Positions 8,317 to 20,739 of a DNA stretch of 24,699 nt are shown in pieces. Each line of letters begins with the position of its first letter. Position 1 is the stretch's first letter. The position numbers and the translations under genes were made by a program. Source of the DNA: a virus; IMG/VR virus record IMGVR_UViG_3300045988_176129, positions 1 to 24,699 of that record; one strand, 5' to 3'. Below the pieces are notes generated by a model. It ran no database searches. It saw only the letters and a program-made list of their open reading frames with translations, and was not told the origin of the DNA.

Positions 8317-8351
8317 ACTTTAGCACGTTAAAGTGTCATCACTGCAAAGCG
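8317..8351. repeat. conserved ~35-nt hairpin element (ACTTTAG-CACG-TTAAAGT + GTYATCACTGNRAAGCG), copy a
   Basis: Family also at 8527-8562, 8607-8640, 8683-8703, 9421-9456, 10628-10663, 12725-12760 and 20699-20733. The stem covaries through G-U pairs. Confidence 0.6.
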
Positions 8352-8375
8352 AAAGACTAAGTTAAAATCCGTTTA

Positions 8376-8405
8376 ATTATACCACACAGTCGTATGGTTT
8401 GTCAA
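8376..8405 (-). promoter_or_regulatory. leftward sigma-70 promoter, cassette copy 2 (faces the plus promoter at 8268 across element a)
   Basis: rc TTGACA (8400-05), 18-nt spacer, rc TATAAT (8376-81). Confidence 0.45.
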
Positions 8406-8430
8406 TAGTAAAATGCAAAAAAAATTGCAC

Positions 8431-8462
8431 AAATTTTAATTTCCCATTTTGTGCAATCTGCA
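8431..8462. promoter_or_regulatory. operator-like inverted repeat TTGCACAA-N16-TTGTGCAA
   Basis: Perfect 8-bp arms. A member of the TGCACAA motif family enriched in intergenic DNA. Confidence 0.45.
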
Positions 8463-8479
8463 CAACGAACAAGTGTTTG

Positions 8480-8690
8480 GTTAGCCTTAACTAACTGTCC
8501 AAACAAACGTTCGGTTAGGCAAGACTAACTTTAGTGCGTTAAAGTGCTATCACTTTGCAGTGAACGTGTGGTCGGTTAGGTAAGACTAACTCAAGTTAGG
8601 AGAGGCTAACTTTAGCACACTAAAGTGATGCAGTAGCAAAGAGTTAGTTAAGACTAATTTAAGTTAGTTCAGACTAACATTAACACTTTA
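8480..8690. repeat. second cluster of GTTAG..GACTAACT iteron-like repeats interleaved with three copies of the 35-nt element
   Basis: ggttagccttaactaact / cggttaggcaagactaact / cggttaggtaagactaactc / agttagttaagactaatt / agttagttcagactaac. Confidence 0.55.
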
Positions 8691-8714
8691 ATGTGTTAAA
8701 GTGTTAATACAAAA

Positions 8715-8752
8715 GAGTAGCACAAAGAACACCTGTTCTCTGTGCTTTTTTC
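8715..8752. terminator. bidirectional rho-independent terminator
   Basis: Hairpin GCACAAAGAACACC/TGTTCTCTGTGC followed by TTTTTTCTTTTAT on plus; T-rich on minus as well. Confidence 0.5.
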
Positions 8753-8754
8753 TT

Positions 8755-8880
8755 TTATTTGTTCAATGATTCAATAATCGTAAAACCTGCCATTTCCGCA
8801 TGTCTTATTTCTTCTGTTGTCATTTCTGTTTTTCCTATTGTGCTATTGTTTAATTTTACTATTACTTTTCTCATGGCCAT
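8755..8880 (-). CDS. hypothetical small protein (41 aa) on minus strand inside the early region
   Basis: AAGGAAAGG SD plus its own minus promoter (8910-8938). MAMRKVIVKLNNSTIGKTEMTTEEIRHAEMAGFTIIESLNK. Not in the track (<60 aa). Confidence 0.4.
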   Translation of the reverse strand: MAMRKVIVKLNNSTIGKTEMTTEEIRHAEMAGFTIIESLNK

Positions 8881-8909
8881 CACCAATTCCTTTCCTTATC
8901 TTTATACTA

Positions 8910-8938
8910 ATAATACATCAAAGCCAAACAAAAGTCAA
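8910..8938 (-). promoter_or_regulatory. sigma-70 promoter (minus) for the 8880->8755 gene
   Basis: rc TTGACT (8933-38), 17-nt spacer, rc TATTAT (8910-15). Divergent from the plus promoter at 8981. Confidence 0.45.
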
Positions 8939-8980
8939 TAGTTTTTTACAAAAAAAATAAAAAATATTTTTAAAAAAGTA

Positions 8981-9009
8981 TTGACAAATTGTTAGTTATC
9001 TGGTATTAT
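8981..9009 (+). promoter_or_regulatory. sigma-70 promoter
   Basis: TTGACA 8981-86, 17-nt spacer, TATTAT 9004-09. Confidence 0.5.
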
Positions 9010-9047
9010 TAGATTACAAGGTAAGGAAAGAGAGGAAAGAAACAAAA

Positions 9048-9119
9048 GTGGAGGAACTTATTCAGTGGCAAAGAGAGTTAGGTATTAGTGAGGAACAGAT
9101 AAAAATTAACATGAGGTGA
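9048..9119 (+). CDS. possible GTG-initiated micro-ORF (23 aa, MEELIQWQRELGISEEQIKINMR)
   Basis: Only ORF downstream of promoter 8981. SD AGAGAGG is 11-12 nt from the GTG, which is weak. Confidence 0.2.
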   Translation: MEELIQWQRELGISEEQIKINMR

Positions 9120-9157
9120 TAATTCAATACTAGATGATGAAATAATAAAAATAAGTG

Positions 9158-9186
9158 TTGACAAATGAAGTATTAGATGTTATAAT
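9158..9186 (+). promoter_or_regulatory. sigma-70 promoter
   Basis: TTGACA 9158-63, 17-nt spacer, TATAAT 9181-86. Confidence 0.55.
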
Positions 9187-9239
9187 AAATATATAATAAA
9201 GGAAAGGAAACCCCACCAAAGGGGTAAAGGTAAAAGATT

Positions 9240-9377
9240 ATGAAAACACCAAAAACAAGAGGATTTTATGAGTTCAAAGATGGTACAGTGGTTTGGTTTG
9301 CTGGATTAAGTGCTAGTGAGCAGAGAAAAGAGATTGCTAAGCATGGCGCAATCATAAAGTTTACACATACTAACTAA
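9240..9377 (+). CDS. hypothetical small protein (45 aa)
   Basis: Leader AAAGGAAAGG-hairpin(CCCC/GGGG)-AAAGGTAAAAGATT-ATG. MKTPKTRGFYEFKDGTVVWFAGLSASEQRKEIAKHGAIIKFTHTN. Followed by a terminator. Confidence 0.5.
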   Translation: MKTPKTRGFYEFKDGTVVWFAGLSASEQRKEIAKHGAIIKFTHTN

Positions 9378-9380
9378 AAA

Positions 9381-9410
9381 TGGGGGCGGTCGCTAAACCG
9401 CTCCTTTTAT
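9381..9410. terminator. rho-independent terminator (bidirectional)
   Basis: GGGGCGG-tcgctaaa-CCGCTCC with a G-U pair, then TTTTAT. The minus strand also has ATTTTTAG after the stem. Confidence 0.55.
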
Positions 9411-9468
9411 CTACCCTTGCCGCTTTAGCACGTTGAAGTGTTATCGCTTCACAGCGTCGCACCCCAGT

Positions 9469-9488
9469 ATTGGGCGGGTGGGTGGGTT
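9469..9488 (+). other. G-quadruplex-type G-tract (GGGCGGGTGGGTGGG), copy 2
   Basis: Preceded by a CCCC-agtatt-GGG mini-hairpin. Confidence 0.55.
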
Positions 9489-9497
9489 ATATATAAT

Positions 9498-9526
9498 ATT
9501 ATACCACATTTTCGTCCAGTTGTCAA
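9498..9526 (-). promoter_or_regulatory. leftward extended -10 promoter, cassette copy 3
   Basis: rc TTGACA (9521-26), 17-nt spacer, rc TGGTATAAT (9498-9506). Confidence 0.5.
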
Positions 9527-9649
9527 GAGTAAAAATTCACAAAAGTAAAGAAAATTTTTTGTAACTATTGCACATTGACTTCTAATGTCAATGGCAAAAA
9601 TAGCCAAAGATCTGCCGCACATTTTATGCAACTTTTTTATCAAAAATAG

Positions 9650-9678
9650 TTGACATGTAATAATTCTTTTGTTATAAT
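9650..9678 (+). promoter_or_regulatory. sigma-70 promoter
   Basis: TTGACA 9650-55, 17-nt spacer, TATAAT 9673-78. Leader GTATACATAAGATAAAGGAAA is shared with promoter 10858. Confidence 0.55.
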
Positions 9679-9720
9679 GTATACATAAGATAAAGGAAAA
9701 AGAAAGAGAGGTAAAAAATT

Positions 9721-9939
9721 ATGGAATACAGAACAATTACAGCAGAGGATTTATACAACGCATTAGTAGAGGTTTGCGGAGTATCTGAGGAATTTATCAG
9801 TGGGGCAGTTGCCGTTGGTGGATTCACGAAGGAAACAATGCATGATGTAGCCTATTATAAAAGCGGTTATCAAACCGTTGAGGATTGGGTTGACGCTATT
9901 ACCGATGAATTTTTAGAAGAGTTAGAAAAGGAGGACTAA
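9721..9939 (+). CDS. hypothetical acidic protein (72 aa)
   Basis: AGAGAGGTAA SD. Confidence 0.6.
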   Translation: MEYRTITAEDLYNALVEVCGVSEEFISGAVAVGGFTKETMHDVAYYKSGYQTVEDWVDAITDEFLEELEKED

Positions 9940-9943
9940 TACA

Positions 9944-10111
9944 ATGCCTAAATTAAGAGATGAAACATTAAGAGAACAGCTCATGCTTACATTGATTAAA
10001 AAGCGTGGACATGAGGACAGAGAGGTTATCCAGTTTTGCAATCTTTGCGAACTTAAAGAATTAAGCGATAAAACAATAAGAGATATTTTTGATAGGTTGA
10101 TAAAAGAATAG
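9944..10111 (+). CDS. hypothetical small protein (55 aa)
   Basis: GGAGGA SD 9929-34. Not in the track. Confidence 0.5.
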   Translation: MPKLRDETLREQLMLTLIKKRGHEDREVIQFCNLCELKELSDKTIRDIFDRLIKE

Positions 10112-10123
10112 GAGGTATCTATA

Positions 10124-10279
10124 ATGAATGATAAAGAGACATTAAAAGATATTTTTTCAAAAGCAAAAATTGAAATCCTCACCGAAGAAGAGGATTATTT
10201 AGAGATAGCAACAAGGGGTTACAATATTGTTAGCCTTACTTTTGATAAAGATGGAAAATTAACTAAAATTTTTGCTTGA
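10124..10279 (+). CDS. hypothetical small protein (51 aa)
   Basis: GGAGG SD 10111-15. Stop overlaps the -35 of the next promoter. Confidence 0.5.
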   Translation: MNDKETLKDIFSKAKIEILTEEEDYLEIATRGYNIVSLTFDKDGKLTKIFA

Positions 10280-10304
10280 CATTTTATCTCTACTAATGTA
10301 TAAT
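10276..10304 (+). promoter_or_regulatory. sigma-70 promoter
   Basis: TTGACA 10276-81, 17-nt spacer, TATAAT 10299-304. Confidence 0.5.
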
Positions 10305-10339
10305 TAAAGTATCAAAAGAAAAGAGAAGGTACAAAAGTT

Positions 10340-10579
10340 ATGAGAGATTTTTTTAATATTAAGGATGACTACTACAGATTTGAAATCTATGACCTTACTG
10401 CAATTTTAACAATTTTAAATGTTGTGTTCGTGCTCATGGGTTATTGGTGGGCGCCGATATTTGGACTTGTAAACTGTGCAATTTGTTTAACAATGAATGT
10501 TATTAACAGGTTGCACATAAACGCCTATCTTACTCAGGTCGCGTTAATAATTTTAAATGTTTACTTTTTAACCTTGTAG
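10340..10579 (+). CDS. small membrane protein (79 aa, 2 TM)
   Basis: AGAGAAGGTA SD; hydrophobic. Confidence 0.6.
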   Translation: MRDFFNIKDDYYRFEIYDLTAILTILNVVFVLMGYWWAPIFGLVNCAICLTMNVINRLHINAYLTQVALIILNVYFLTL

Positions 10580-10586
10580 TAAAGGG

Positions 10587-10620
10587 GCGGATGCTAATAT
10601 TTTAGCATCTGCTTTTTTTG
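10587..10620 (+). terminator. rho-independent terminator
   Basis: GCGGATGCTAA-tatt-TTAGCATCTGC then TTTTTTTG. Confidence 0.6.
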
Positions 10621-10668
10621 TTTGTTACACTTTAACACGTTAAAGCGTAATCACTGAGAAGCGCAGAA

Positions 10669-10698
10669 GGGGTCCGACTTAGGGTGGTAGGGTGGGTA
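10669..10698 (+). other. G-quadruplex-type G-tract (GGGGtccgacttaGGGTGGTAGGGTGGG), copy 3
   Basis: Same cassette position. Confidence 0.5.
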
Positions 10699-10705
10699 TA
10701 GATAT

Positions 10706-10735
10706 ATTATAACACATTTCTTGCCCAGTTGTCAA
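10706..10735 (-). promoter_or_regulatory. leftward extended -10 promoter, cassette copy 4
   Basis: rc TTGACA (10730-35), 18-nt spacer, rc TGTTATAAT (10706-14). Confidence 0.45.
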
Positions 10736-10857
10736 TAGTTAAAATTCACAAAAATGATTAAATTTTTTGTTACTATTGACTATTGACAAAAAATTACAAT
10801 GTGCAATAGTAACAAAAAACTTAATGCTAATTTATTCAACTTTTTTCTACTTTTTTA

Positions 10858-10886
10858 TTGACTTTTAACGCTTAAAGCCTTATAAT
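10858..10886 (+). promoter_or_regulatory. sigma-70 promoter
   Basis: TTGACT 10858-63, 17-nt spacer, TATAAT 10881-86. Confidence 0.55.
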
Positions 10887-10939
10887 GTATACATAAGATA
10901 AAGGAAAGGAAATCCAATAAGGATTAAAGGTAAAGAATT

Positions 10940-11284
10940 ATGAGAACAGCAAAGGTGATATTTATTTCAGAAGAAGAGAAAAGCATGATTGACAGATTAA
11001 AAAAGGCATATATGGCAACTGATTCAGGTAAAAAGAAAAACGCTAGAATCGGAGTTGTTCTCACTGAGATGTGGTATGAGGATAGTCTCAGTTTCGAGGA
11101 TTTCCAAATAGATGAAATAGACTGGAATATGATAGACGATATATTAACAGCTTATGAAGATGAGCCATTAAGAGATAATGAAGGTTATATCTTTGATAAA
11201 GAAGATATGCTGGATGCATTGGCGGACTTTGACCCGTTAGCAGATTCTAAAATATACCATGATTATAAAATTATGATAATGTAA
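10940..11284 (+). CDS. hypothetical acidic protein (114 aa)
   Basis: Leader AAAGGAAAGG-hairpin(AATCC/GGATT)-AAAGGTAAAGAATT-ATG. Confidence 0.6.
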   Translation: MRTAKVIFISEEEKSMIDRLKKAYMATDSGKKKNARIGVVLTEMWYEDSLSFEDFQIDEIDWNMIDDILTAYEDEPLRDNEGYIFDKEDMLDALADFDPLADSKIYHDYKIMIM

Positions 11285-11288
11285 GAAA

Positions 11289-11320
11289 AAAGGCAAGCAC
11301 TTTTTATGCTTGCCTTTATT
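11289..11320 (+). terminator. rho-independent terminator
   Basis: AGGCAAGC-actttttat-GCTTGCCT then TTATTAT. Confidence 0.55.
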
Positions 11321-11380
11321 ATAGCTTAAAAGTTAGTTGTAACTAACTAAGATTAGACTCGACTAACTCCGGTCTTCTCC
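11321..11380. repeat. third short cluster of GTTAG/ACTAACT iteron-like repeats
   Basis: aagttagttgtaactaactaagattagactcgactaactcc. Confidence 0.45.
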
Positions 11381-11408
11381 GGGGTGGGTGGGAGGGGGAG
11401 GGTGGAGG
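11381..11408 (+). other. G-quadruplex-type G-tract (GGGGTGGGTGGGAGGGGGAGGGTGGAGG), copy 4
   Basis: Same cassette position. The leftward -10 here is degenerate (TTAGCA). Confidence 0.55.
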
Positions 11409-11564
11409 ATAAGTTTAGCACAAATCAGCTTTTTTGTCAATTGGTAAAAATTCACAAAAGTAAAGGAAAATTTTTAGTATTATTGACTATTGTATCTTTT
11501 TGTCAATGTGCAATAGTAACAAAATTTTAAACTTTAATTTGTGCATTTTTTTTCTTCAAAACAC

Positions 11565-11592
11565 TTGCAATTTATAACCAAAGTGATATAAT
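11565..11592 (+). promoter_or_regulatory. sigma-70 promoter
   Basis: TTGCAA 11565-70, 16-nt spacer, TATAAT 11587-92. Confidence 0.5.
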
Positions 11593-11616
11593 AAATAATG
11601 TAAGGAGGCGATAACA

Positions 11617-11730
11617 ATGATAGTAATAATCAATGATACAAAGTTTGGTTTAATGCTAGTTGACTCTGAGACTGGTGAGATATTAGCTGAGGGCAAACAG
11701 GAAATAATAAATTTTATAAAAAGTTGTTGA
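11617..11730 (+). CDS. hypothetical micro-protein (37 aa)
   Basis: AAGGAGG SD. MIVIINDTKFGLMLVDSETGEILAEGKQEIINFIKSC. Confidence 0.4.
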   Translation: MIVIINDTKFGLMLVDSETGEILAEGKQEIINFIKSC

Positions 11731-11755
11731 CAAATAAAGCACAAAGTGATATAAT
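11727..11755 (+). promoter_or_regulatory. sigma-70 promoter
   Basis: TTGACA 11727-32, 17-nt spacer, TATAAT 11750-55. Confidence 0.55.
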
Positions 11756-11809
11756 AAATACAAGATAAAGGAAAGGGAATCCAAAAAAAGGATTTAAAGG
11801 TAAAAAGAT

Positions 11810-11980
11810 ATGAGAAAAATAGTAGTAAAAACAAATGGACAGATAATAATGACAATAGCAACTAGCGGCGTTGCTAAAATAATTCAGATGAACGATACAA
11901 CTTATAGATATACAGATATATGGGGCGATAGTAAGACATTCAAAGTTAGGAAAGGCTCTGAAGTAACTTTGGAAGATTAA
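11810..11980 (+). CDS. hypothetical small protein (56 aa)
   Basis: Leader with AATCC-A7-GGATT hairpin and AAAGGTAAAAAGAT-ATG. Confidence 0.5.
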   Translation: MRKIVVKTNGQIIMTIATSGVAKIIQMNDTTYRYTDIWGDSKTFKVRKGSEVTLED

Positions 11981-12033
11981 AATATATAATTAAGGGGCGG
12001 TTAGTTGATACCGCCCAGGAAGAGGGACATTGT

Positions 12034-12174
12034 ATGACAAAGCAGGAAATACTAGACTATATGGACGATTTTAAGGATGAATATGGAAGCTCATTTACAG
12101 ATTCAAATTTTGAGATAAGCAATATTATAGAAGAAGCATTAGACCTGTATTTTGATACAATAAAGGAGGCATAA
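12034..12174 (+). CDS. hypothetical small acidic protein (46 aa)
   Basis: GGAAGAGGG SD. Preceded by a GGGCGGT/ACCGCCC hairpin that lacks a T-tract. Confidence 0.45.
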   Translation: MTKQEILDYMDDFKDEYGSSFTDSNFEISNIIEEALDLYFDTIKEA

Positions 12175-12175
12175 T

Positions 12176-12298
12176 ATGAGCGCATTTGAGATTAAAAGAG
12201 ATTTAGAGGATGTATATGGCATCCGTCTTTGGGATGGACAGTGTTTGTGGTTTGGTAGTAGAGAAGAAAGAGATATTGCATTCTTGTTAATGCAGTAA
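12176..12298 (+). CDS. hypothetical small protein (40 aa)
   Basis: AAAGGAGG SD 12162-69. Confidence 0.45.
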   Translation: MSAFEIKRDLEDVYGIRLWDGQCLWFGSREERDIAFLLMQ

Positions 12299-12308
12299 GG
12301 AGGATAAT

Positions 12309-12488
12309 ATGGATATAGATGGATTATTATTTTTAGGAAAACCAGAAGATTATGCTATAAATATATTAAGAGAACATCATAGCTATTTCATGCTAGAATC
12401 TCATGGGGATAGCTTTGATTATATCTATTGGGATAAATACAGGTTTGTTTTTATCAATAAAATCTGTACAAAGGTAACATTAAAATAA
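12309..12488 (+). CDS. hypothetical small protein (59 aa)
   Basis: AAGGAGGA SD 12297-304. Confidence 0.5.
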   Translation: MDIDGLLFLGKPEDYAINILREHHSYFMLESHGDSFDYIYWDKYRFVFINKICTKVTLK

Positions 12489-12504
12489 TAAAGGAGCAAT
12501 GAAT

Positions 12505-12686: not shown

Positions 12687-12716
12687 GGGCGGAGAGACAT
12701 TCTCCGCCTTTTATCT
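12687..12716. terminator. rho-independent terminator
   Basis: GGCGGAGAG-acat-TCTCCGCC then TTTTAT. Confidence 0.6.
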
Positions 12717-12785
12717 GCGGTTATCACTTCACCACGCTAAAGTGTTATTACTGTGAAGCGTGAAGCCTCGACCTTACCCCACTTT

Positions 12786-12801
12786 GGGGTGGGTGGGTGG
12801 G
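12786..12801 (+). other. G-quadruplex-type G-tract (GGGGTGGGTGGGTGGG), copy 5
   Basis: Canonical (G3N1)4. Preceded by CCCC-acttt-GGGG. Confidence 0.6.
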
Positions 12802-12809
12802 CTTAAAAT

Positions 12810-12838
12810 TATTATACCACAGATTACTGTCTTTGTCA
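12810..12838 (-). promoter_or_regulatory. leftward extended -10 promoter, cassette copy 6
   Basis: rc TTGACA (12833-38), 17-nt spacer, rc TGGTATAAT (12810-18). Confidence 0.5.
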
Positions 12839-12886
12839 ATAGATAAATTATCCTAAAATTAAAAAATTTTTTGTGCAATATTTTAC

Positions 12887-14634: not shown

Positions 14635-14646
14635 AGCATAAAAATT

Positions 14647-14695
14647 ATGCACAAAAAGCCTGAGGTAGAAAATATCTCAGGCTTTTTGTGCATTT
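14647..14695. terminator. bidirectional terminator / large perfect palindrome
   Basis: TGCACAAAAAGCCTGAGG-tagaaaatat-CCTCAGGCTTTTTGTGCA. Arms carry the TGCACAA motif. T-rich flanks on both strands. Confidence 0.55.
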
Positions 14696-14758
14696 TGACG
14701 AAAAATAGAATCGGCATTTTGCACAAAAGCGTAAATGAAAATTTGTATGAATTGCCTA

Positions 14759-14787
14759 TTGACAAGCACCCCTGTATGTGATATAAT
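14759..14787 (+). promoter_or_regulatory. sigma-70 promoter firing into a GC hairpin
   Basis: TTGACA 14759-64, 17-nt spacer, TATAAT 14782-87. Confidence 0.5.
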
Positions 14788-14790
14788 TGG

Positions 14791-14819
14791 GCGGCGCGTG
14801 CCCTGCCCTTACGCGCCGC
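14791..14819. other. perfect 9-bp GC hairpin (GCGGCGCGT-gccctgccctt-ACGCGCCGC) between convergent promoters
   Basis: Both facing promoters would start transcription inside or adjacent to it. Confidence 0.55.
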
Positions 14820-14822
14820 AAT

Positions 14823-14852
14823 ATTATACCATAGTCCCCTATGGTTTGTCAA
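14823..14852 (-). promoter_or_regulatory. leftward extended -10 promoter, cassette copy 7
   Basis: rc TTGACA (14847-52), 18-nt spacer, rc TGGTATAAT (14823-31). Confidence 0.5.
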
Positions 14853-15067
14853 GACTAATTTTTAAAAAAATTGCACAAATTTTGCGATTCCCGAAAGACT
14901 TTTATTGTGCAAAATGACGAATTTTAACTTTGTGAAATCTGCACAAAACCCGCCCCGCATTTTTAGTTATTTTGCCATATTGTATTTTACCCTCTAATGT
15001 GATATTATAATACTTGTAAGGAAGAGAAAAACAAAAGCAAGCAACCTTAAAGAAAATAAAAAAAGTG

Positions 15068-16373: not shown

Positions 16374-16381
16374 AAAAGATG

Positions 16382-16459: not shown

Positions 16460-16843
16460 ATGACACAGAGAGAAATGTTTAACGCAATGGTAAAGGTAGT
16501 AAATGAGGCTTCAGTAGATACTATTGAGGAGGTAGGATTTTCAAAAGATGAACTTCTTGAGGGCATCAATGCTAGAATAGAGGCTCTTGATAAGAAAAAT
16601 AGTTCATCTTCTAGCAAGCCTACAAAAAAGCAGTTAGAAAACGAAGGTATCTATAATAATATTATAGAGATTATGTCTGATAATGCATCTCGTACTGTTA
16701 GACAGATAACAGACATTTACAATTCAACTTTTGATGCAGATTTGTCAACCAATAGAGTCCAGCCACAGGTAACAAAGGCGGTAAAGAATGGAATTTTTAA
16801 CAGAACTGTTGTGAAAGGTGTCGTATATTTTGTAAGCAAGTAA
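16460..16843 (+). CDS. hypothetical protein, paralog A of the 18083 gene
   Basis: MTQREMFNAMVKV...ARIEALDKK...ENEGIY...QVTKAVKNG...VVKGVVYF is alignable along its length with 18083-18526. Confidence 0.7.
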   Translation: MTQREMFNAMVKVVNEASVDTIEEVGFSKDELLEGINARIEALDKKNSSSSSKPTKKQLENEGIYNNIIEIMSDNASRTVRQITDIYNSTFDADLSTNRVQPQVTKAVKNGIFNRTVVKGVVYFVSK

Positions 16844-16848
16844 TGAAA

Positions 16849-16882
16849 GTGGGGCAAGGGATTGAAAAAATCCTTTGCTCCA
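16849..16882 (+). terminator. 12-bp hairpin with two G-U pairs (GGGGCAAGGGAT-tgaaaaa-ATCCTTTGCTCC), terminator-like
   Basis: No clean T-tract after it, so termination may be partial. Confidence 0.35.
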
Positions 16883-16909
16883 TGAATAAAAATTTAATTG
16901 AGAATCCGC

Positions 16910-16938
16910 TTGACATTGCTTTATTCTTTTGATATAAT
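16910..16938 (+). promoter_or_regulatory. sigma-70 promoter
   Basis: TTGACA 16910-15, 17-nt spacer, TATAAT 16933-38. Confidence 0.55.
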
Positions 16939-16972
16939 AGAGTTATGAAAAAGAGATAAGGAGGTTGTAAAA

Positions 16973-17113
16973 ATGAGCAACAAAGAATATTTTGCATACA
17001 TGGACAAATGGCTTGAGAAAAAGCGCAAAGAATTACAGCCCCCTAAAGTTACGGCGGTTAAAAAGAAGAGAAAAAGGTGGATAAAAAATGAAAGCAATAG
17101 TAATAAGAATTGA
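16973..17113 (+). CDS. possible small basic protein (46 aa, KKKRKRW-rich) overlapping the next gene by 26 nt
   Basis: Strong AAGGAGG SD 16958-64, 8 nt before the ATG. Confidence 0.4.
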   Translation: MSNKEYFAYMDKWLEKKRKELQPPKVTAVKKKRKRWIKNESNSNKN

Positions 17114-17345
17114 TGATGAATATCTTCCCGCAGTCGCAAAAGATTATAAGGCAGCCATTCGGTTTTTAATTGATAAAGGATGGATAGACGAAGAAACAGA
17201 AATTTGGATTGACGAAGAAGATAAATACATAACAATACAGGAGGCAGGTATTAGACTAGAAGATATTAAAAACTATAATAGAGATACTTTTGAAAAATAC
17301 TTTGGATATGATTATGAACTAGTTGACAGAGAACTTGTAGAATAA
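17088..17345 (+). CDS. hypothetical acidic protein (85 aa)
   Basis: GGTGGA SD. Followed by a terminator. Confidence 0.6.
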   Translation: MKAIVIRIDDEYLPAVAKDYKAAIRFLIDKGWIDEETEIWIDEEDKYITIQEAGIRLEDIKNYNRDTFEKYFGYDYELVDRELVE

Positions 17346-17351
17346 AAGTCA

Positions 17352-17388
17352 ATTGGCAAGATGCACAAAATCTTGCCAATTTTTTTAT
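17352..17388. terminator. bidirectional rho-independent terminator with TGCACAA in the loop
   Basis: ATTGGCAAGA-tgcacaaa-TCTTGCCAAT then TTTTTTTAT. The minus strand also has a T-rich flank. Confidence 0.6.
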
Positions 17389-17424
17389 GCATTTTTTTAT
17401 AAAAAAAGACTTGACATTCTGATT

Positions 17425-17457
17425 TGGCGGCGCGCTGACGCTCTTATAGCGCCGCCA
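17425..17457. other. 9-bp GC hairpin (TGGCGGCGC...GCGCCGCCA) just downstream of the leftward promoter
   Basis: Same architecture as 14791-14819. Confidence 0.5.
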
Positions 17458-17458
17458 A

Positions 17459-17488
17459 ATTATACCATACCCTCGTATGGTTTGTCAA
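17459..17488 (-). promoter_or_regulatory. leftward extended -10 promoter, cassette copy 8
   Basis: rc TTGACA (17483-88), 18-nt spacer, rc TGGTATAAT (17459-67). Confidence 0.5.
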
Positions 17489-17618
17489 GACATAAAATAC
17501 AAAAAACTTGCACAAATTTCATAATCCCGAAAGGCTAAATTTCTCTCTATTGCACAAAAGTAAAAATTCTTTGTGCAACATGCACAAAGATTCACTCTCT
17601 CGCCCCCATTTTTTATAC

Positions 17619-17647
17619 TTGCATTTTATAAAAATTTTTGATATAAT
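17619..17647 (+). promoter_or_regulatory. sigma-70 promoter (1 of 4 tandem)
   Basis: TTGCAT 17619-24, 17-nt spacer, TATAAT 17642-47. Confidence 0.45.
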
Positions 17648-17706
17648 TGTATTAAAGATAAGGGATAGAAAATATCTCAAGTCTTAAAAATCTCATAAAA
17701 AAGTTA

Positions 17707-17735
17707 TTGACATGAATAAATATTTATGTTATAAT
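17707..17735 (+). promoter_or_regulatory. sigma-70 promoter (2 of 4 tandem)
   Basis: TTGACA 17707-12, 17-nt spacer, TATAAT 17730-35. Confidence 0.55.
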
Positions 17736-17795
17736 AAAACAAAAGTGAGATTTCAATAAGGACTTAAAAAAATCAATAAGATTTTAAAAAAGTCC

Positions 17796-17824
17796 TTGAC
17801 AAAAAACCAAAAGTATGATATACT
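17796..17824 (+). promoter_or_regulatory. sigma-70 promoter (3 of 4 tandem)
   Basis: TTGACA 17796-801, 17-nt spacer, TATACT 17819-24. Confidence 0.5.
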
Positions 17825-17854
17825 TAATACATAATAAGGAAGGAGGTAAGAAAC

Positions 17855-17875
17855 ATGAGGTCACCGCCTAGATAA
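17855..17875 (+). CDS. 6-codon mini-ORF MRSPPR behind a perfect AGGAGGT SD
   Basis: AAGGAAGGAGGTAAGAAAC-ATG-AGG-TCA-CCG-CCT-AGA-TAA. Possible leader peptide (Pro-Pro stall motif) or decoy. Confidence 0.3.
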   Translation: MRSPPR

Positions 17876-17887
17876 AATAAAAAAAGT

Positions 17888-17916
17888 GTTGACAAAAATT
17901 TAAAAATATGATATAA
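17888..17916 (+). promoter_or_regulatory. sigma-70 promoter (4 of 4 tandem)
   Basis: TTGACA 17888-93, 17-nt spacer, TATAAT 17911-16. Confidence 0.55.
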
Positions 17917-17929
17917 TAAAAATGTAAAA

Positions 17930-18030
17930 AAGATAAGGCTTAAGGCTTCAAAAATGATTTCGACCCTGTGCCTATTCAAACAGGGCTGAATAAGAGGTTT
18001 GAGGTTCAACCCCTTCGCCTTACCAAAAAA
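17930..18030 (+). ncRNA. structured ~100-nt 5' leader with a T-arm-like hairpin and duplicated GGGCTGAAT motif
   Basis: Hairpins CCCTGT-gcctattcaa-ACAGGG and GAGG-TTCAACC-CCTT, ending in ...GCCTTACCA. Not a canonical tRNA by hand folding. Confidence 0.25.
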
Positions 18031-18082
18031 TGTGGGCTGAATGATAACAATAAATTTTAAACATTGAAAGGATGGATGTATT

Positions 18083-18526
18083 ATGACACAGAGAGAGATG
18101 TATAACACAATTAAGAACATTATCACAGGTATTTCAACAGAGGACTTCGAGGCACTTGCCCCAGAGTTTTCAAGAGAAGAGATTGTTGAGGGTATTGATG
18201 CTAGAATTGAGGCACTCAATAAGAAGTCAACAGGTTCAAAGAAGCCTACAAAGACTCAGATTGAGAACGAGGGCATATATGCTAATATTCTTGCGTTTAT
18301 GGCGGATGGTGCGGCTCGTACTAACAAAGCTATTACTGATACCTATAATCTTCTGTATAACACAGAGTATTCTACAAACAAGATTCAGGCTCAGGTAACT
18401 AAGGCTGTCAAGGGTGGCGCGCTTAACAGGGCAGTAGTAAAGGGTGTCGTATATTTCACCATAAATGCTACTCCTACCGCCACAGATGACTCAGCAGAAG
18501 ATATTGTTGATGATGTAGAAGAGTAA
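18083..18526 (+). CDS. hypothetical protein, paralog B of the 16460 gene, with an extra acidic C-terminal tail
   Basis: MTQREMYNTIKNI...ARIEALNKK...ENEGIY...QVTKAVKGG...VVKGVVYF. AAAGGATGGA SD. Confidence 0.7.
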   Translation: MTQREMYNTIKNIITGISTEDFEALAPEFSREEIVEGIDARIEALNKKSTGSKKPTKTQIENEGIYANILAFMADGAARTNKAITDTYNLLYNTEYSTNKIQAQVTKAVKGGALNRAVVKGVVYFTINATPTATDDSAEDIVDDVEE

Positions 18527-18576
18527 TTTTTAATATAGTATAAGGGTGTGAGGGCAACTCCCCTCCGCCCGGAATA

Positions 18577-18653
18577 GCAAGGTTATAAAAATTCGTTTTT
18601 ATAGTGGTTATAATTTTATAATTATAAAAAAGGTTCGACTCCTTTACCTTGCA
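18577..18653 (+). ncRNA. tRNA-like element (possible degenerate or atypical phage tRNA)
   Basis: Perfect 7-bp acceptor stem GCAAGGT/ACCTTGC. Canonical T-arm AAAGG-TTCGACT-CCTTT (G53 T54 T55 C56 R57 A58 ... C61). D arm TAAA/TTTA. The anticodon arm is AT-rich and non-canonical: best fit is an 8-nt loop, and the D-loop has no GG. Confidence 0.3.
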
Positions 18654-18685
18654 TTTAACTAGTTTACTTTTGGATTTCCTTAAAT

Positions 18686-18711
18686 GGGGCGGTCAATACC
18701 TTCACCGCCCC
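18686..18711 (+). other. 8-bp GC hairpin GGGGCGGT-caataccttc-ACCGCCCC without a T-tract
   Basis: Upstream of promoter 18732. Possible processing or partial-termination site. Confidence 0.35.
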
Positions 18712-18731
18712 GCACACCTTAAAAATAGGTG

Positions 18732-18760
18732 TTGACAAATTGAGGTATAGGGTGTATAAT
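18732..18760 (+). promoter_or_regulatory. sigma-70 promoter
   Basis: TTGACA 18732-37, 17-nt spacer, TATAAT 18755-60. Confidence 0.55.
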
Positions 18761-18791
18761 AAGGTATAATCAAAAAAGGATGGTGGTAGTT

Positions 18792-19211
18792 ATGAAAATA
18801 ACAACAACAAAAGGTAAAAGTGTTAATGTAAAAGATAGCGTTATTCAGAAATACATGAACGACTTCTCTCTTACAAAAGAGGACGCTATTCAGATGTATC
18901 TTGAGGATGAAGGCTTCGAGGATAACGAGGATGTAGAAGAAATGACTACAAAAGCCAAAGAAAATAAAGCAGTTATGCATGGCGAGAGTGCTGACAAAGA
19001 CGAACGCAAAGTCACCAACAAGAAACAGTCTAAGCCTAAGACAGTGAAAATCTCAGATACAAAAAAAGAACTTTTTAGTAAAATATCACAGTTTTTGACC
19101 GAAACTTTTGGTGAAAATGCTGAAGTTCTTAAAGAAAATAAGCTGATACAGGTTAAAATTGGTGAAGATATGTTCAAAATAGACATAATTCAGCAGAGAA
19201 AACCAAAGTAA
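18792..19211 (+). CDS. hypothetical charged protein (139 aa)
   Basis: AAAGGATGG SD with 9-nt spacing to ATG 18792. The track start 18780 abuts the SD. Confidence 0.6.
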   Translation: MKITTTKGKSVNVKDSVIQKYMNDFSLTKEDAIQMYLEDEGFEDNEDVEEMTTKAKENKAVMHGESADKDERKVTNKKQSKPKTVKISDTKKELFSKISQFLTETFGENAEVLKENKLIQVKIGEDMFKIDIIQQRKPK

Positions 19212-19243
19212 TTTGGTAAAATTTAACAAATGACCTCTCTTTT

Positions 19244-19287
19244 GAGCGAGTTTTTAGTAAAAAATGCTAAAAATTCGCTCTTTTTTT
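19244..19287 (+). terminator. rho-independent terminator
   Basis: GAGCGAG-25-nt loop-CTCGCTC then TTTTTTT. Confidence 0.45.
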
Positions 19288-19302
19288 GTGCAATTTTTAT
19301 AC

Positions 19303-19331
19303 TTGACAAGAGATAAAAGATATGGTATAAT
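19303..19331 (+). promoter_or_regulatory. sigma-70 promoter firing directly into a GC hairpin plus T-tract
   Basis: TTGACA 19303-08, 17-nt spacer, TGGTATAAT 19323-31. Then GCGGGGCGC...GCGCCCCCGC (19334-62) followed by TTTTAAAAA. Confidence 0.5.
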
Positions 19332-19423
19332 GGGCGGGGCGCGATAGACCGGGCGCCCCCGCTTTTAAAAATCAAGTGTAATTTTGAACAAAAATAAAAT
19401 AATTTTTTGTTTATTTTGTCTAT

Positions 19424-19451
19424 TGATAAAATCCTAAAACATTGTTATAAT
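19424..19451 (+). promoter_or_regulatory. sigma-70 promoter
   Basis: TTGATA 19424-29, 16-nt spacer, TATAAT 19446-51. Confidence 0.45.
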
Positions 19452-19486
19452 GTATTTACAAAGTTAAGGAAAGAGAGGTAACTAAA

Positions 19487-19741
19487 ATGAAAGTATCAAG
19501 AAAAATGAAAGTGCCAAGAAATGAAATGATTAAAATCAGAAAAAATCTTCTCAGACAGATGGATGATTATCTGCGGTCAAGCGTTGATGAAAACATTATC
19601 ATTGATATTTGGTTTGCTGTTGGTCTTGAGGATGGATGGGATAATAATATTTTAACAGAGTATGCAAGTGATGAAGATTTATGGCTGTCTTGCGTTAATG
19701 CTTTTAAAGCCTGTTGTGAAAGAGAAAATATTTTAAAATAA
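19487..19741 (+). CDS. hypothetical protein (84 aa)
   Basis: AGAGAGGTAA SD. Confidence 0.6.
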   Translation: MKVSRKMKVPRNEMIKIRKNLLRQMDDYLRSSVDENIIIDIWFAVGLEDGWDNNILTEYASDEDLWLSCVNAFKACCERENILK

Positions 19742-19747
19742 TGTTTC

Positions 19748-19776
19748 TTGACAAATAGTTGACCATATGGTATAAT
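19748..19776 (+). promoter_or_regulatory. sigma-70 promoter
   Basis: TTGACA 19748-53, 17-nt spacer, TGGTATAAT 19768-76. Confidence 0.55.
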
Positions 19777-19805
19777 AAATATATAAAGAAAGAGAGGTAA
19801 TTGAA

Positions 19806-20144
19806 ATGAAAGATTTTATTATTATGGCAATCGTTATGACAATAGTAGTTGGAGCGCTTTTATCATTTATAATTGTAAATATTTTCGCAGAAAATAGTAA
19901 GTCTATATTAAAAAAGATTATTACTGTAATAATTGCTATTGCTATTGGATGTGGAATAAGTGGATTATTCGCACTGGAAAGAAGGGGTGATGAAGTAGCA
20001 TGGAACAATGGTTATTGTACAGAATGTGAACATCCTTATAGATTCGCTAATACAGAGTATCACAGAAATGCGGGAACTACTTATATTTGGGTTTGTGATA
20101 ATTGTGGAAAAATAATTGAATTGCATAGTAAATATTCAAAATAA
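19806..20144 (+). CDS. membrane protein (2 TM) with C-terminal zinc ribbon (CTEC...CDNC)
   Basis: AGAGAGGTAA SD. Hydrophobic N-terminal half and a Cys4 ribbon. Confidence 0.65.
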   Translation: MKDFIIMAIVMTIVVGALLSFIIVNIFAENSKSILKKIITVIIAIAIGCGISGLFALERRGDEVAWNNGYCTECEHPYRFANTEYHRNAGTTYIWVCDNCGKIIELHSKYSK

Positions 20145-20163
20145 AAAGGAGGAATAAGATATA

Positions 20164-20469
20164 ATGAATATTGAAAATAAAATAAGCGGTTGGAAAATTA
20201 CAGGTTTTGAAACAAAGCCGATTTTTGATAGTCAAATTCTTTCTCTTGAGGAGTGCATGAAAACAATCAAAAAACAGGAAACAATGAATTTTATCCTTGA
20301 TACATTCCGTTTTATTAAAGGAATGAAAGAAGGCGACTGGTTCGCTCTTATTGACCGTGATACGATTATGAAAATTTCTATTATGGAAACAAATTCAAAA
20401 GAAGAAGAACAACTAAAAGAGTATTTTGGCGAAAACTGGATTGAAAATTATTTACGGTTTAATCATTAA
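20164..20469 (+). CDS. hypothetical protein (101 aa)
   Basis: AAGGAGGAA SD. Confidence 0.6.
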   Translation: MNIENKISGWKITGFETKPIFDSQILSLEECMKTIKKQETMNFILDTFRFIKGMKEGDWFALIDRDTIMKISIMETNSKEEEQLKEYFGENWIENYLRFNH

Positions 20470-20483
20470 AGATTGCGGAGAAT

Positions 20484-20516
20484 GATAGAAGAGTAAAATC
20501 TTCTATCATTTTTTTG
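20484..20516 (+). terminator. rho-independent terminator ending the plus-strand early block
   Basis: GATAGAAGA-gtaaaa-TCTTCTATC then ATTTTTTT. Confidence 0.6.
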
Positions 20517-20526
20517 CATTTACCTA

Positions 20527-20555
20527 TTGACAAAAGCAAGAAAGTATGCTAAAAT
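20527..20555 (+). promoter_or_regulatory. sigma-70 promoter firing into a GC hairpin (no ORF)
   Basis: TTGACA 20527-32, 17-nt spacer, TAAAAT 20550-55. Hairpin CGGGCC...GGCCCG at 20558-84. Confidence 0.45.
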
Positions 20556-20586
20556 GTCGGGCCGCGCACGTAGGAGCAGGCCCGCA

Positions 20587-20615
20587 ATTATACCACAAAT
20601 TACACTTCAAGTCAA
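20587..20615 (-). promoter_or_regulatory. leftward extended -10 promoter, cassette copy 9
   Basis: rc TTGACT (20610-15), 17-nt spacer, rc TGGTATAAT (20587-95). Confidence 0.45.
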
Positions 20616-20739
20616 GTTTTTTTCAAAATAAAAATGCACAAATTTTTTGCTATTTTCCCGAAAGTCTTTGTGCAATTTGTACAATGTGATGCGGTAGCAC
20701 TTTAACGCGGTGAAGTGTAACAGTATGAAGTGATAAAGG

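What the first reader, a model, noticed from the sequence alone, without database searches (positions are those of the whole stretch)
8317..20733. Family of conserved ~35-nt hairpin elements with compensatory base changes
Eight copies are at 8317, 8527, 8607, 8683, 9421, 10628, 12725 and 20699. All share ACTTTAG-CACG-TTAAAGT followed by GTYATCACTGNRAAGCG. The stem is maintained through substitutions that keep pairing, for example CTTTAG/TTGAAG with a G-U pair, CTTTAAC/GTTAAAG, and CACTTTA/TGAAGTG. That pattern points to selection for RNA structure rather than DNA sequence. Five copies lie between a plus-gene terminator and a G-tract, so they would be transcribed by the leftward promoters. One copy (8317) lies between face-to-face promoters. 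Three copies are embedded in the iteron cluster at 8480-8690. The element could be the functional core of the putative small RNAs, or a binding site for an RNA- or DNA-binding phage protein.
Basis: seen in the sequence. Interest (0 to 1): 0.65.

Follow-up and report, generated by a model that had tools for sequence, protein, structure and literature searches.

The report
Host histidine-repressor binding sites on phage
The eight "hairpins" are not RNA structures but near-perfect copies of the DNA site bound by HisR, the bacterial histidine repressor. Several unrelated gut phages carry such sites in clusters, which suggests they recruit or soak up this host nutrient sensor.

Summary
Eight copies sit at the stated positions, against 0.04 expected by chance. 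The RNA-hairpin reading does not hold:
- No stem pair shows a compensatory double change.
- Covariation is no better than in shuffles.
- G·T and A·C mismatches are equally common.
- Predicted folds differ between copies, and Rfam has no match.

The 20-bp core (CACTTTAGCACGTTAAAGTG) equals the published operator consensus of HisR, cacTTTAnnnnnnTAAAgtg. HisR is a TrpR-family, histidine-dependent repressor of Firmicutes and Actinobacteria. A matrix built only from 104 published HisR sites scores the eight copies at 22.0-24.9 bits; native sites have a median of 16.8 and a maximum of 24.7.

Extra half-sites lie at +8, +16, +24 and +32 bp, the tandem register of this protein family. The same 18-mer occurs:
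- in promoters of amino-acid genes in gut bacteria;
- about 55 nt from both ends of small phi29-like phages;
- in dense arrays in related SPβ-like phages, up to 22 sites in 1.7 kb.

No phage examined encodes a HisR homolog. Most likely the host's histidine-loaded HisR binds these sites, which would gate short noncoding transcription units and titrate the repressor. Binding itself is inferred, not shown.

The parts
8316..8335 (.). HisR-type box 1 (TACTTTAGCACGTTAAAGTG). It lies between face-to-face promoters, at about +14..+33 of the rightward promoter.
   Evidence: 24.9 bits with the matrix built from published HisR sites; promoters
8527..8546 (.). HisR-type box 2 (AACTTTAGTGCGTTAAAGTG). It abuts the iteron at 8514-8529.
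   Evidence: (23.2 bits)
8608..8627 (.). HisR-type box 3 (AACTTTAGCACACTAAAGTG). It abuts the iteron at 8595-8610.
   Evidence: (23.9 bits)
8684..8703 (.). HisR-type box 4 (CACTTTAATGTGTTAAAGTG). A shifted weak site overlaps it at 8676.
   Evidence: 23.3 bits
9421..9440 (.). HisR-type box 5 (CGCTTTAGCACGTTGAAGTG). It lies between terminator 9382-9405 and the G-tract and leftward promoter.
   Evidence: 22.0 bits
10628..10647 (.). HisR-type box 6 (CACTTTAACACGTTAAAGCG). It lies between terminator 10581-10618 and the G-tract and leftward promoter.
   Evidence: 22.2 bits
12725..12744 (.). HisR-type box 7 (CACTTCACCACGCTAAAGTG). It lies between terminator 12687-12709 and the G-tract and leftward promoter.
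   Evidence: 24.8 bits
20698..20717 (.). HisR-type box 8 (CACTTTAACGCGGTGAAGTG on the + strand). Its roughly 70-nt surroundings are about 76% identical to the terminal repeats of small phi29-like phages.
   Evidence: 22.4 bits
8344..8351 (+). Extra in-phase half-site GCAAAGCG, 16 bp after the right arm of box 1. Equivalent sites are at 10656-10663 and 12753-12760, with a weak one at 9449-9456.
   Evidence: read from the sequence; 8-bp register of extra half-sites across phage boxes
8268..8296 (+). Consensus sigma-70-type promoter. It would transcribe through boxes 1-4 and the iteron array as far as terminator 8719-8746, giving a noncoding unit of about 450 nt.
   Evidence: 12/12, TG-extended -10; the unit is inferred, and no ORF is called there
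8376..8405 (-). Leftward consensus promoter facing box 1.
9498..9526 (-). Leftward consensus promoter; box 5 is centred at about +60 of its transcript.
10706..10735 (-). Leftward consensus promoter; box 6 is centred at about +60.
12811..12839 (-). Leftward consensus promoter; box 7 is centred at about +70.
8480..8678 (.). Array of GTTAG-N6-CTAAC iterons interleaved with boxes 2-4. The binder is unknown. The same pairing of iterons with boxes is seen in related phages L022 and L087.

Best explanation
Each element is a double-stranded DNA operator of the HisR type. HisR (YerC) is a small TrpR-family repressor that binds the 20-bp palindrome cacTTTAnnnnnnTAAAgtg when loaded with L-histidine. In the four longest copies the "35-nt element" is this palindrome plus one more half-site in the family's 8-bp register.

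The phage encodes no HisR in the 42 kb examined, so the proposed binder is the host's HisR.

Proposed working (inferred):
- In histidine-replete cells, HisR·His occupies the eight very strong sites.
- Four of them lie inside a roughly 450-nt noncoding unit driven by the promoter at 8268-8296, with the first site at about +14..+33.
- Three lie at +60 to +70 inside the short leftward units, each made of promoter, C-rich leader, box and terminator.
- Bound repressor would occlude or roadblock these transcripts, tying this regulatory and iteron region to the cell's histidine status.
- As the phage genome replicates, the sites necessarily also titrate HisR away from the host his operon and histidine transporter.

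Shown here: the sequence identity with HisR operators, their strength, their 8-bp register, their recurrence in unrelated phages and in host promoters, and the absence of RNA-type covariation.

Inferred: actual HisR binding in infected cells, and which consequence (roadblock, origin control or titration) is the one selected for.
For: - The published HisR consensus for Firmicutes, Actinobacteria and Synergistetes is cacTTTAnnnnnnTAAAgtg. It was validated in vitro with Ruminococcus gnavus HisR and requires L-histidine (PMC9413887).
- Published site lists contain near-identical sequences, for example cactttagtgtgctaaagta and cagtttagcacgttaaagcg.
- A matrix built only from 104 published sites scores the eight window elements at 22.0-24.9 bits. 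Native sites have a median of 16.8 and a maximum of 24.7. Markov shuffles give 0.83 hits at or above 11.5 bits.
- The exact 18-mer in bacterial genomes lies in or just after sigma-70 promoters of amino-acid ABC binding proteins, serC, aroB, ilvH and agcS. One example is TTGACTTTAGCACGTTAAAGTTATATAAT.
- A hisR homolog lies about 2.4 kb from the box in host locus L086.
- Extra half-sites occur almost only at +8, +16, +23/24 and +32 from an arm. Direct 8-bp repeats of CTAAAGTG occur in L021. This fits the 8-bp half-site spacing described for the TrpR family (PMC9413887).
- The central 6 bp keeps a purine/pyrimidine alternation, as in native HisR sites.
- There is no RNA signal.
- Strong boxes recur in unrelated phages: about 55 nt from both ends of protein-primed phages of roughly 16.5 kb, in the terminal repeats of L021 and L075, and as arrays in L060, L016, L025, L022, L101, L111 and L087.
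- No HisR/TrpR homolog was found in the window, in any phage locus, or in the complete small phage genomes.
Against: - Binding was not tested, and the host is unknown, so the presence of hisR in the host is unverified.
- Only about 42 kb of the 140-kb phage genome could be read. A phage-encoded binder elsewhere is not excluded.
- In the SPβ-like phages the boxes are tightly interleaved with GTTAG-N6-CTAAC iterons whose binder is unknown. This could point to a phage-specific nucleoprotein structure rather than simple repression.
- In the small phages the boxes lie about 170 nt upstream of the first promoter-like site. Promoter occlusion cannot be their role there.
- Several host hits (serC, aroB, ilvH, agcS, galM) are not in the published HisR regulon. 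A paralogous TrpR-family factor with the same specificity is possible.
- L087 was binned with Erysipelotrichaceae, an order reported to have lost HisR. The bin may simply be wrong.
Confidence: 0.6

Rival explanations
1. Decoy or sponge as the primary function. The super-consensus boxes exist mainly to sequester HisR·His as phage DNA amplifies. This would derepress host histidine biosynthesis and uptake to feed phage protein synthesis, and position relative to phage promoters would be incidental.
For: - The boxes are stronger than nearly all native sites.
- They occur in dense arrays, with 22 sites at or above 16.8 bits in 1.7 kb of L087 and 11 in 6.2 kb of L060.
- They occur in unrelated phages at positions with no common promoter relationship, such as terminal repeats of small phages.
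- Extra in-phase half-sites would increase occupancy.
Against: - There is no expression or titration data.
- It is unclear why histidine alone would be targeted.
- Interleaving with a second iteron type, and placement inside promoter-to-terminator units conserved between the window and L087, suggest a local function.
- Some related SPβ-like phages and SPβ itself lack boxes entirely.
Confidence: 0.2
2. The boxes are bound by a phage-encoded protein. It could be a diverged HTH protein or an MrpR-like master repressor encoded outside the window, and the match to the HisR consensus would come from mimicry or chance.
For: - SPβ-like phages use a repeated operator (SPBRE) bound by the phage repressor MrpR (PMC10516654).
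- The boxes co-occur with phage-specific iterons.
- Only 42 of 140 kb of this genome was examined.
Against: - The same motif occurs in complete small phi29-like genomes that share no protein with the window and encode no TrpR-like protein.
- The motif is identical to host operators, including the central alternation and the 8-bp register.
- SPβ itself has no such box.
Confidence: 0.1
3. Structured RNA hairpin. The element would fold in the leftward small RNAs or the rightward noncoding RNA and be recognised as RNA.
For: - All copies lie in regions predicted to be transcribed.
- The palindrome can fold, for example in the 10583-10700(-) transcript, z = -4.75.
- On the + strand, boxes 1-4 all give stems of 7-8 bp with G·U pairs.
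Against: - No double compensatory change is seen, and covariation equals the shuffles.
- Across 86 distinct phage boxes, G·T and A·C mismatches number 27 and 31 outside the pair at box positions 8 and 13, so there is no strand preference.
- Copy 9422 pairs only on the + strand and 12726 only on the - strand, although both sit in the same context.
- Minimum-energy folds differ between copies.
- Half-sites also occur as direct repeats.
- In hosts the motif overlaps the -35/-10 spacer, so it is not fully transcribed.
- Rfam has no hit.
Confidence: 0.05
4. Origin or terminus architecture. HisR, or a cruciform or single-strand hairpin of the palindrome, would act at replication origins: the terminal repeats of protein-primed phages and the iteron region at 7600-8750 here. 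This would couple replication initiation to histidine status.
For: - The boxes lie about 55-100 nt from both genome ends in the small phages.
- In the window and in L022 and L087 they cluster with iteron arrays typical of origins.
- A precedent from established knowledge is the set of Spo0A and Spo0J sites near the ends of phi29 (from memory, not checked here).
Against: - No origin has been mapped, and the iteron function is unknown.
- Four of the eight window boxes (9421, 10628, 12725, 20698) lie far from the iteron cluster.
Confidence: 0.05

Closest known systems
HisR (YerC, TrpR family) operators of Firmicutes and Actinobacteria (Ashniev et al. 2022, PMC9413887)
   Same: They share the 20-bp palindrome consensus, the alternating purine/pyrimidine centre and the 8-bp tandem register. 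The window boxes score at the top of the range of native sites.
   Different: Native sites are one per promoter, upstream of his biosynthesis genes, the hisXYZ transporter and hisR. Here there are eight per 12 kb of phage DNA, not next to any his gene, partly in arrays and at phage genome ends. The paper's main text does not contain the word 'phage'.
Host-regulator sites on phage phi29: Spo0A boxes and Spo0J/parS sites near the genome ends (from memory, not checked here)
   Same: A lytic phage carries multiple binding sites for a host physiological regulator near its origins and early promoters, so phage development follows host state. The small phages found here are phi29-like: they have a protein-primed type B polymerase, terminal repeats and a weak Phi29_SSB hit.
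   Different: The regulator differs, being an amino-acid repressor rather than a sporulation regulator. The logic is also opposite: HisR binds when the nutrient is plentiful. In phi29 the binding was shown experimentally, whereas here it is inferred.
Stoperators of cluster A mycobacteriophages (L5 gp71) (from memory)
   Same: Many copies of one repressor site are scattered in short intergenic spaces downstream of promoters, where bound repressor blocks elongation.
   Different: Stoperators are asymmetric, oriented with transcription and bound by the phage's own repressor. The boxes here are palindromic and match a host repressor.
SPBRE elements bound by MrpR in Bacillus phage SPβ (PMC10516654)
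   Same: It is a repeated operator at about 10 intergenic sites in the early regions of an SPβ-type genome. The window phage is SPβ-like, with YonG_N, YonD_N, YonB and YomW domains.
   Different: SPBRE is a 15-bp motif in promoter regions, bound by a phage-encoded recombinase-fold repressor. SPβ has no HisR-type box at or above 14 bits in 134 kb.

Membership tests
HisR (TrpR-family) operator | 20-bp palindrome matching cacTTTAnnnnnnTAAAgtg | tested here: met
   All eight copies match.
HisR (TrpR-family) operator | Score within the range of curated HisR sites under a matrix built independently of the window | tested here: met
   The copies score 22.0-24.9 bits. The 104 published sites have a median of 16.8 and a maximum of 24.7. 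Shuffles give 0.83 hits at or above 11.5 bits.
HisR (TrpR-family) operator | Tandem binding register of 8 bp between half-sites | tested here: met
   Extra T[AG]AAG half-sites occur at +8, +16, +23/24 and +32 and almost nowhere else up to +22. L021 has direct 8-bp repeats.
HisR (TrpR-family) operator | Location in promoter regions of his biosynthesis or transport genes, or of hisR | tested here: not met
   No his gene lies in the 42 kb read. The boxes sit in phage intergenic spacers. The same 18-mer does lie in host promoters of amino-acid genes.
HisR (TrpR-family) operator | Histidine-dependent binding by HisR protein | not testable with these tools
   This needs EMSA, fluorescence polarisation or ChIP.
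HisR (TrpR-family) operator | Cognate hisR gene present in the same cell | not testable with these tools
   The host is unknown. No hisR was found in the window or phage loci. hisR was found in host loci L086 and L081 that carry the box.
Structured RNA element (cis-regulatory hairpin or sRNA core) | Covariation that preserves pairing | tested here: not met
   0 of 8 pairs show double changes, and the score equals the shuffles, 320/500. The broader set of 86 boxes shows G·T roughly equal to A·C.
Structured RNA element (cis-regulatory hairpin or sRNA core) | Consistent strand and consistent fold among copies | tested here: not met
   Minimum-energy structures differ, and copies favour opposite strands (sequence).
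Structured RNA element (cis-regulatory hairpin or sRNA core) | Match to a curated RNA family | tested here: not met
   Rfam gathering and E-value scans gave no relevant hit.
SPBRE/MrpR operator of SPβ | 15-bp SPBRE motif in early promoter regions, bound by phage MrpR | tested here: inconclusive
   The SPBRE sequence is not given in the text read. SPβ lacks HisR-type boxes. No MrpR homolog was sought beyond Pfam scans of the window.
Mycobacteriophage stoperators | Asymmetric site, oriented with transcription, bound by the phage's own repressor | tested here: not met
   The sites are palindromic, and no phage repressor was identified.

The most novel reading that the evidence does not exclude
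Several unrelated lineages of gut phages have independently acquired arrays of super-consensus operators for the host histidine repressor. The lineages are SPβ-like phages of about 140 kb and phi29-like phages of 12-17 kb. The arrays would act either as a transcription-factor sponge that derepresses host histidine supply during infection, or as a histidine checkpoint at replication origins and genome ends. Either way, phage non-coding DNA would be reprogramming or sensing host amino-acid metabolism without any auxiliary metabolic gene.
Probability: 0.3. Interest if true: 0.8.

Novelty: new variant of a known kind. Interest (0 to 1): 0.55.

Why it matters
If host HisR really binds these sites, phages would be reading or manipulating an amino-acid repressor circuit through DNA sites alone. 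Gene-centred annotation cannot see this strategy.

The case is directly testable. The protein is known and purifiable, its corepressor (L-histidine) is known, and the sites are defined to the base.

The result also warns against a common misreading. A palindromic operator that tolerates transitions in its half-sites can look like an RNA hairpin with "compensatory" changes.

Finally, it gives a cheap way to link uncultured gut phages to hosts, since a host would be expected to encode HisR with this specificity.

Tried and rejected
- Rfam at gathering and permissive thresholds gave nothing relevant.
- A search of cultured and deposited phage genomes found no close relative of the region. Only promoter-like matches to Staphylococcus Kayvirus terminal regions turned up. 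The terminal-repeat 69-mer of the small phages found only one unannotated faecal contig.
- A literal full-text search of papers for the motif string gave only irrelevant primer hits.
- Identities considered from memory and rejected on sequence or spacing: parS/Spo0J, CIRCE/HrcA, CodY, cre/CcpA, sigma-54 promoter, LytTR direct repeats, MetJ boxes and Chi sites.
The exact 18-mer was used instead. Its 21 hits are close to the rough expectation of about 17 for 596 Gb, so the count alone is not evidence. The consistent promoter context and gene functions are.
- A phage-encoded HisR was sought with Pfam on concatenated window ORFs. It was also sought with a local HMM, built from three solved YerC/HisR proteins, against six-frame translations of all loci, and with Pfam on the small-phage ORFs. 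All were negative.
- SPβ of Bacillus subtilis has no HisR box, so it cannot serve as an experimental model.
- Comparison with the 99%-identical sister contig L120 was uninformative. Six boxes are identical, and the seventh sits in a recombinant module.
- Rex/CRP-like palindromes seen in relative L111 are absent from the window.

Full report
**1. The observation**

Dinucleotide-preserving shuffles expect 0.04. A repeat search recovers six of them as a 35-nt family (family D8). Some details need correction.
- The 3' extension GTYATCACTGNRAAGCG is clear in only four copies.
- Three copies, not five, lie between a plus-strand terminator and a G-tract.
- The copy at 20699 is upstream of its neighbouring leftward promoter.
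- All eight are intergenic according to the gene calls of the source contig.

**2. The setting**

The window is part of a 140,464-bp metagenomic contig, ENA ERZ28658470 scaffold_66. Its structural proteins carry SPβ-prophage domains (YonG_N, YonD_N, YonB, YomW), so this is an SPβ-like phage. The record names, and the origin of related sequences, point to gut or rumen samples; this is an inference.

The region 4.8-20.5 kb is a run of small plus-strand genes, each with a perfect TTGACA-17-TATAAT promoter. It also holds five perfect leftward promoters with a TG-extended -10 (8219, 8405, 9526, 10735, 12839). Three of these leftward units read promoter, C-rich leader, element, bidirectional terminator.

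The 1.1-kb gene-free stretch at 7623-8754 holds two arrays of GTTAG-N6-CTAAC iterons: 16 matches against 0.66 expected. Four of the eight elements lie in this stretch.

**3. Test of the RNA-hairpin idea**

On the alignment of the eight copies, the 8-bp stem is 89% paired. However, four pairs never vary and four vary on one side only. None changes on both sides. The covariation score (0.129) equals the shuffled mean (0.130), and 320 of 500 shuffles reach it.

On 86 distinct boxes collected from all phage loci, both non-compensated intermediates occur at the variable pairs. At the pair formed by box positions 6 and 15, the counts are T-A 65, C·A 9, T·G 6 and C-G 4. Outside the conserved G/T asymmetry at positions 8 and 13, G·T and A·C mismatches number 27 and 31. 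No strand is therefore favoured.

Copies in the same context disagree on strand. Copy 9422 pairs fully only on the plus strand and 12726 only on the minus strand. Minimum-energy folds of the three leftward transcripts use the element in three different ways. Rfam has no relevant match.

**4. The clue from other sequences**

The exact 18-mer occurs in 79 stretches of IMG/VR. Most belong to contigs of about 16.5 kb that carry it roughly 55 nt from both ends in inverted orientation, that is, inside inverted terminal repeats. These genomes encode a protein-primed type B DNA polymerase and a packaging ATPase and share no protein with the window.
- Other terminal-repeat contigs carry it in tandem (L075, 24-bp spacing).
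- L021 has CACTTTAACGTGCTAAAGTGCTAAAGTGCTAAAGTG, in which the half-site CTAAAGTG is repeated directly every 8 bp and no hairpin is possible.
- Large-phage contigs L016, L025 and L060, and the window's relative L022, have clusters.

In bacterial genomes the 18-mer has 21 hits. That is close to the rough chance expectation of about 17 for 596 Gb, but the hits are anything but random.
- At least two-thirds lie in or just after sigma-70 promoters of gut or rumen Clostridia and of Adlercreutzia (67% G+C).
- Examples are TTGACTTTAGCACGTTAAAGTTATATAAT in L081 and L099.
- The genes downstream are amino-acid ABC binding proteins, serC, aroB, ilvH and agcS.

A motif that overlaps the -35/-10 spacer is a DNA operator, not an RNA element.

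**5. Identification**

The 8-bp phasing suggested a TrpR-like protein. The literature confirms it. Ashniev et al. 2022 (PMC9413887) report that HisR (YerC; TrpR family, under 100 aa) of Firmicutes, Actinobacteria and Synergistetes recognises the common consensus cacTTTAnnnnnnTAAAgtg. They also showed that R. gnavus HisR binds its hisX site only with L-histidine.

Their site tables contain sequences nearly identical to the phage elements. I built a weight matrix from 104 of their sites only. The eight window elements score 22.0-24.9 bits, against a native median of 16.8 and maximum of 24.7. Apart from a shifted overlap at 8676, nothing else in the window passes 11.5 bits, where Markov shuffles give 0.83 hits.

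Around strong boxes in all phage loci, extra T[AG]AAG half-sites occur at +8 (29), +16 (8), +23/24 (135) and +32 (7), and essentially nowhere else up to +22. The count at +23/24 is inflated by near-identical small-phage repeats. This explains the "second half" of the 35-nt element: in copies 8317, 10629 and 12726 it ends in an in-phase half-site, RAAGCG at +16.

A local HMM built from three solved YerC/HisR proteins finds hisR in host loci L086 and L081, which carry the box. It finds nothing in the window or in any phage locus. Pfam scans of the window ORFs and of the small-phage ORFs are also negative.

**6. Distribution among phages**

At the native-median threshold:
- The sister contig L120 keeps the boxes. 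It is 99% identical to the window, and six boxes are unchanged.
- The extra 17 kb flanking the window has none.
- Relatives L022, L101 and L111 have six each, L103 three, L060 eleven in 6.2 kb and L087 twenty-two in 1.7 kb.
- More distant relatives L106, L108 and L114 have none.
- SPβ of B. subtilis has none at or above 14 bits in 134 kb.

In L087 the boxes alternate with GTTAG…CTAAC iterons. They lie inside promoter-to-terminator noncoding units. This mirrors the window unit from promoter 8268-8296 through boxes 1-4 to terminator 8719-8746.

**7. Mechanism**

Shown: these are HisR-type operators of unusually high quality. They recur in unrelated phages and are not RNA-constrained.

Inferred: the host's HisR·His binds them. 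In the window the geometry fits repression or roadblock.
- Box 1 lies at about +14..+33 of a consensus promoter.
- Boxes 5-7 lie at +60..+70 of leftward promoters.

In the small phages the boxes sit near the termini, about 170 nt from the first promoter-like site. That fits an origin, end or decoy role better. Titration of a low-abundance autoregulated repressor by replicating phage DNA is an unavoidable side effect and may be the selected function; the dense arrays argue for this. I cannot separate these consequences computationally.

**8. Comparison and novelty**

The elements are new members of the HisR-operator family by sequence, score and register, but not by genomic context. Phage use of host-regulator sites is known in kind. 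Examples from memory are LexA boxes and the Spo0A and parS sites of phi29. Repeated operators are known in SPβ (SPBRE/MrpR) and in mycobacteriophages (stoperators).

I did not find a description of arrays of operators for an amino-acid repressor on phage DNA, placed at genome ends and in early regulatory spacers of unrelated phages. The HisR paper's main text does not contain the word 'phage', and a search for HisR together with phage terms found nothing relevant.

**9. Verdict**

The sequence observation stands. The RNA interpretation is rejected. The alternative "protein-binding site" is right, with a host repressor as the likely binder. Interest is moderate to good because the hypothesis is specific and cheaply testable. 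The functional consequence remains open.

Noticed in passing
window 650-911 (-), 838-1674 (-), 1587-2378 (-): A group I intron (Rfam RF00028, 94.7 bits) and a GIY-YIG homing endonuclease ORF interrupt the terminase large-subunit gene. The 99%-identical sister contig L120 has an intact 581-aa terminase without the insertion.
   Followed up: partly
window 14757-14850, 17411-17490, 20527-20617 (and 8268-8405): Pairs of perfect consensus promoters face each other 60-110 bp apart, with a G+C-rich hairpin between them (for example GGCGGCGCG…CGCGCCGC). In the fourth pair a HisR box takes the place of the hairpin. Convergent transcription over so short a distance is unexplained.
   Followed up: no
window 8160-8185, 9470-9490, 10680-10700, 11380-11410, 12783-12802: G-tracts such as GGGCGGGTGGGTGGG, which are G-quadruplex-type motifs with 1-nt loops, sit on the + strand just downstream of each leftward promoter. 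The leftward RNAs therefore start with a C-rich leader (CCCACCCACCC).
   Followed up: no
window 8021-8156, 8480-8678, 11332-11367: GTTAG-N6-CTAAC iterons occur at a 20-bp period (16 matches against 0.66 expected). In 8480-8678 their right arm overlaps the first bases of a HisR box (CTAAC|TTTAG). The same pairing is seen in L022 and L087. L111 has TGTTA-N6-TAACA next to each box instead. The binder is unknown.
   Followed up: partly
L087 4340-6060: There are 22 HisR-type boxes at or above 16.8 bits within 1.7 kb of noncoding DNA. They alternate with GTTAG…CTAAC iterons and lie downstream of two TTGACA-17-TAGAAT/TAAAAT promoters. The contig is binned with Erysipelotrichaceae but carries homologs of window phage proteins.
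   Followed up: partly
L001-L079 (e.g. L013 1-120; L021 1-360; L075 both ends): This is a family of linear phi29-like genomes of 12-17 kb, mostly from one metagenome (3300045988). Their inverted terminal repeats carry 2-4 HisR-type boxes about 55-100 nt from each end. Window 20666-20738 is about 76% identical to these repeats.
   Followed up: partly
L111 2920-3160: Palindromes TGTGAAAAATTTCACA (Rex/CRP-like, TGTGA-N6-TCACA) occur near the HisR-box cluster of a related phage. They are absent from the window.
   Followed up: partly
window 8410-8470, 14640-14700, 14860-14950, 17500-17590, 20630-20690; L022 2700-4500: The motif TTGCACAAA…TTTGTGCAA recurs as inverted repeats with variable spacing, often forming the stems of terminator-like hairpins. 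There is also a conserved 71-nt block at 8375, 14822 and 17458 (family D13).
   Followed up: no
window 16460-16843 and 18083-18526: Two paralogous ORFs (127 and 147 aa, about 70% DNA identity over 94 nt at their 3' ends) lie within the early region.
   Followed up: no
window 8755-8880 (-): A 41-aa minus-strand ORF with its own promoter-like site and ribosome-binding site sits just right of the box and iteron cluster. It is called as a gene in the source contig (L121 4682-4807). It has no family match.
   Followed up: no
L081, L082, L084, L088/L090, L091/094/097/100, L099: The exact HisR-type 18-mer lies in promoters of serC, aroB, agcS, ilvH and galM in gut and rumen genomes. These genes are not in the published HisR regulon. 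This suggests a wider regulon or a paralogous TrpR-family factor.
   Followed up: partly
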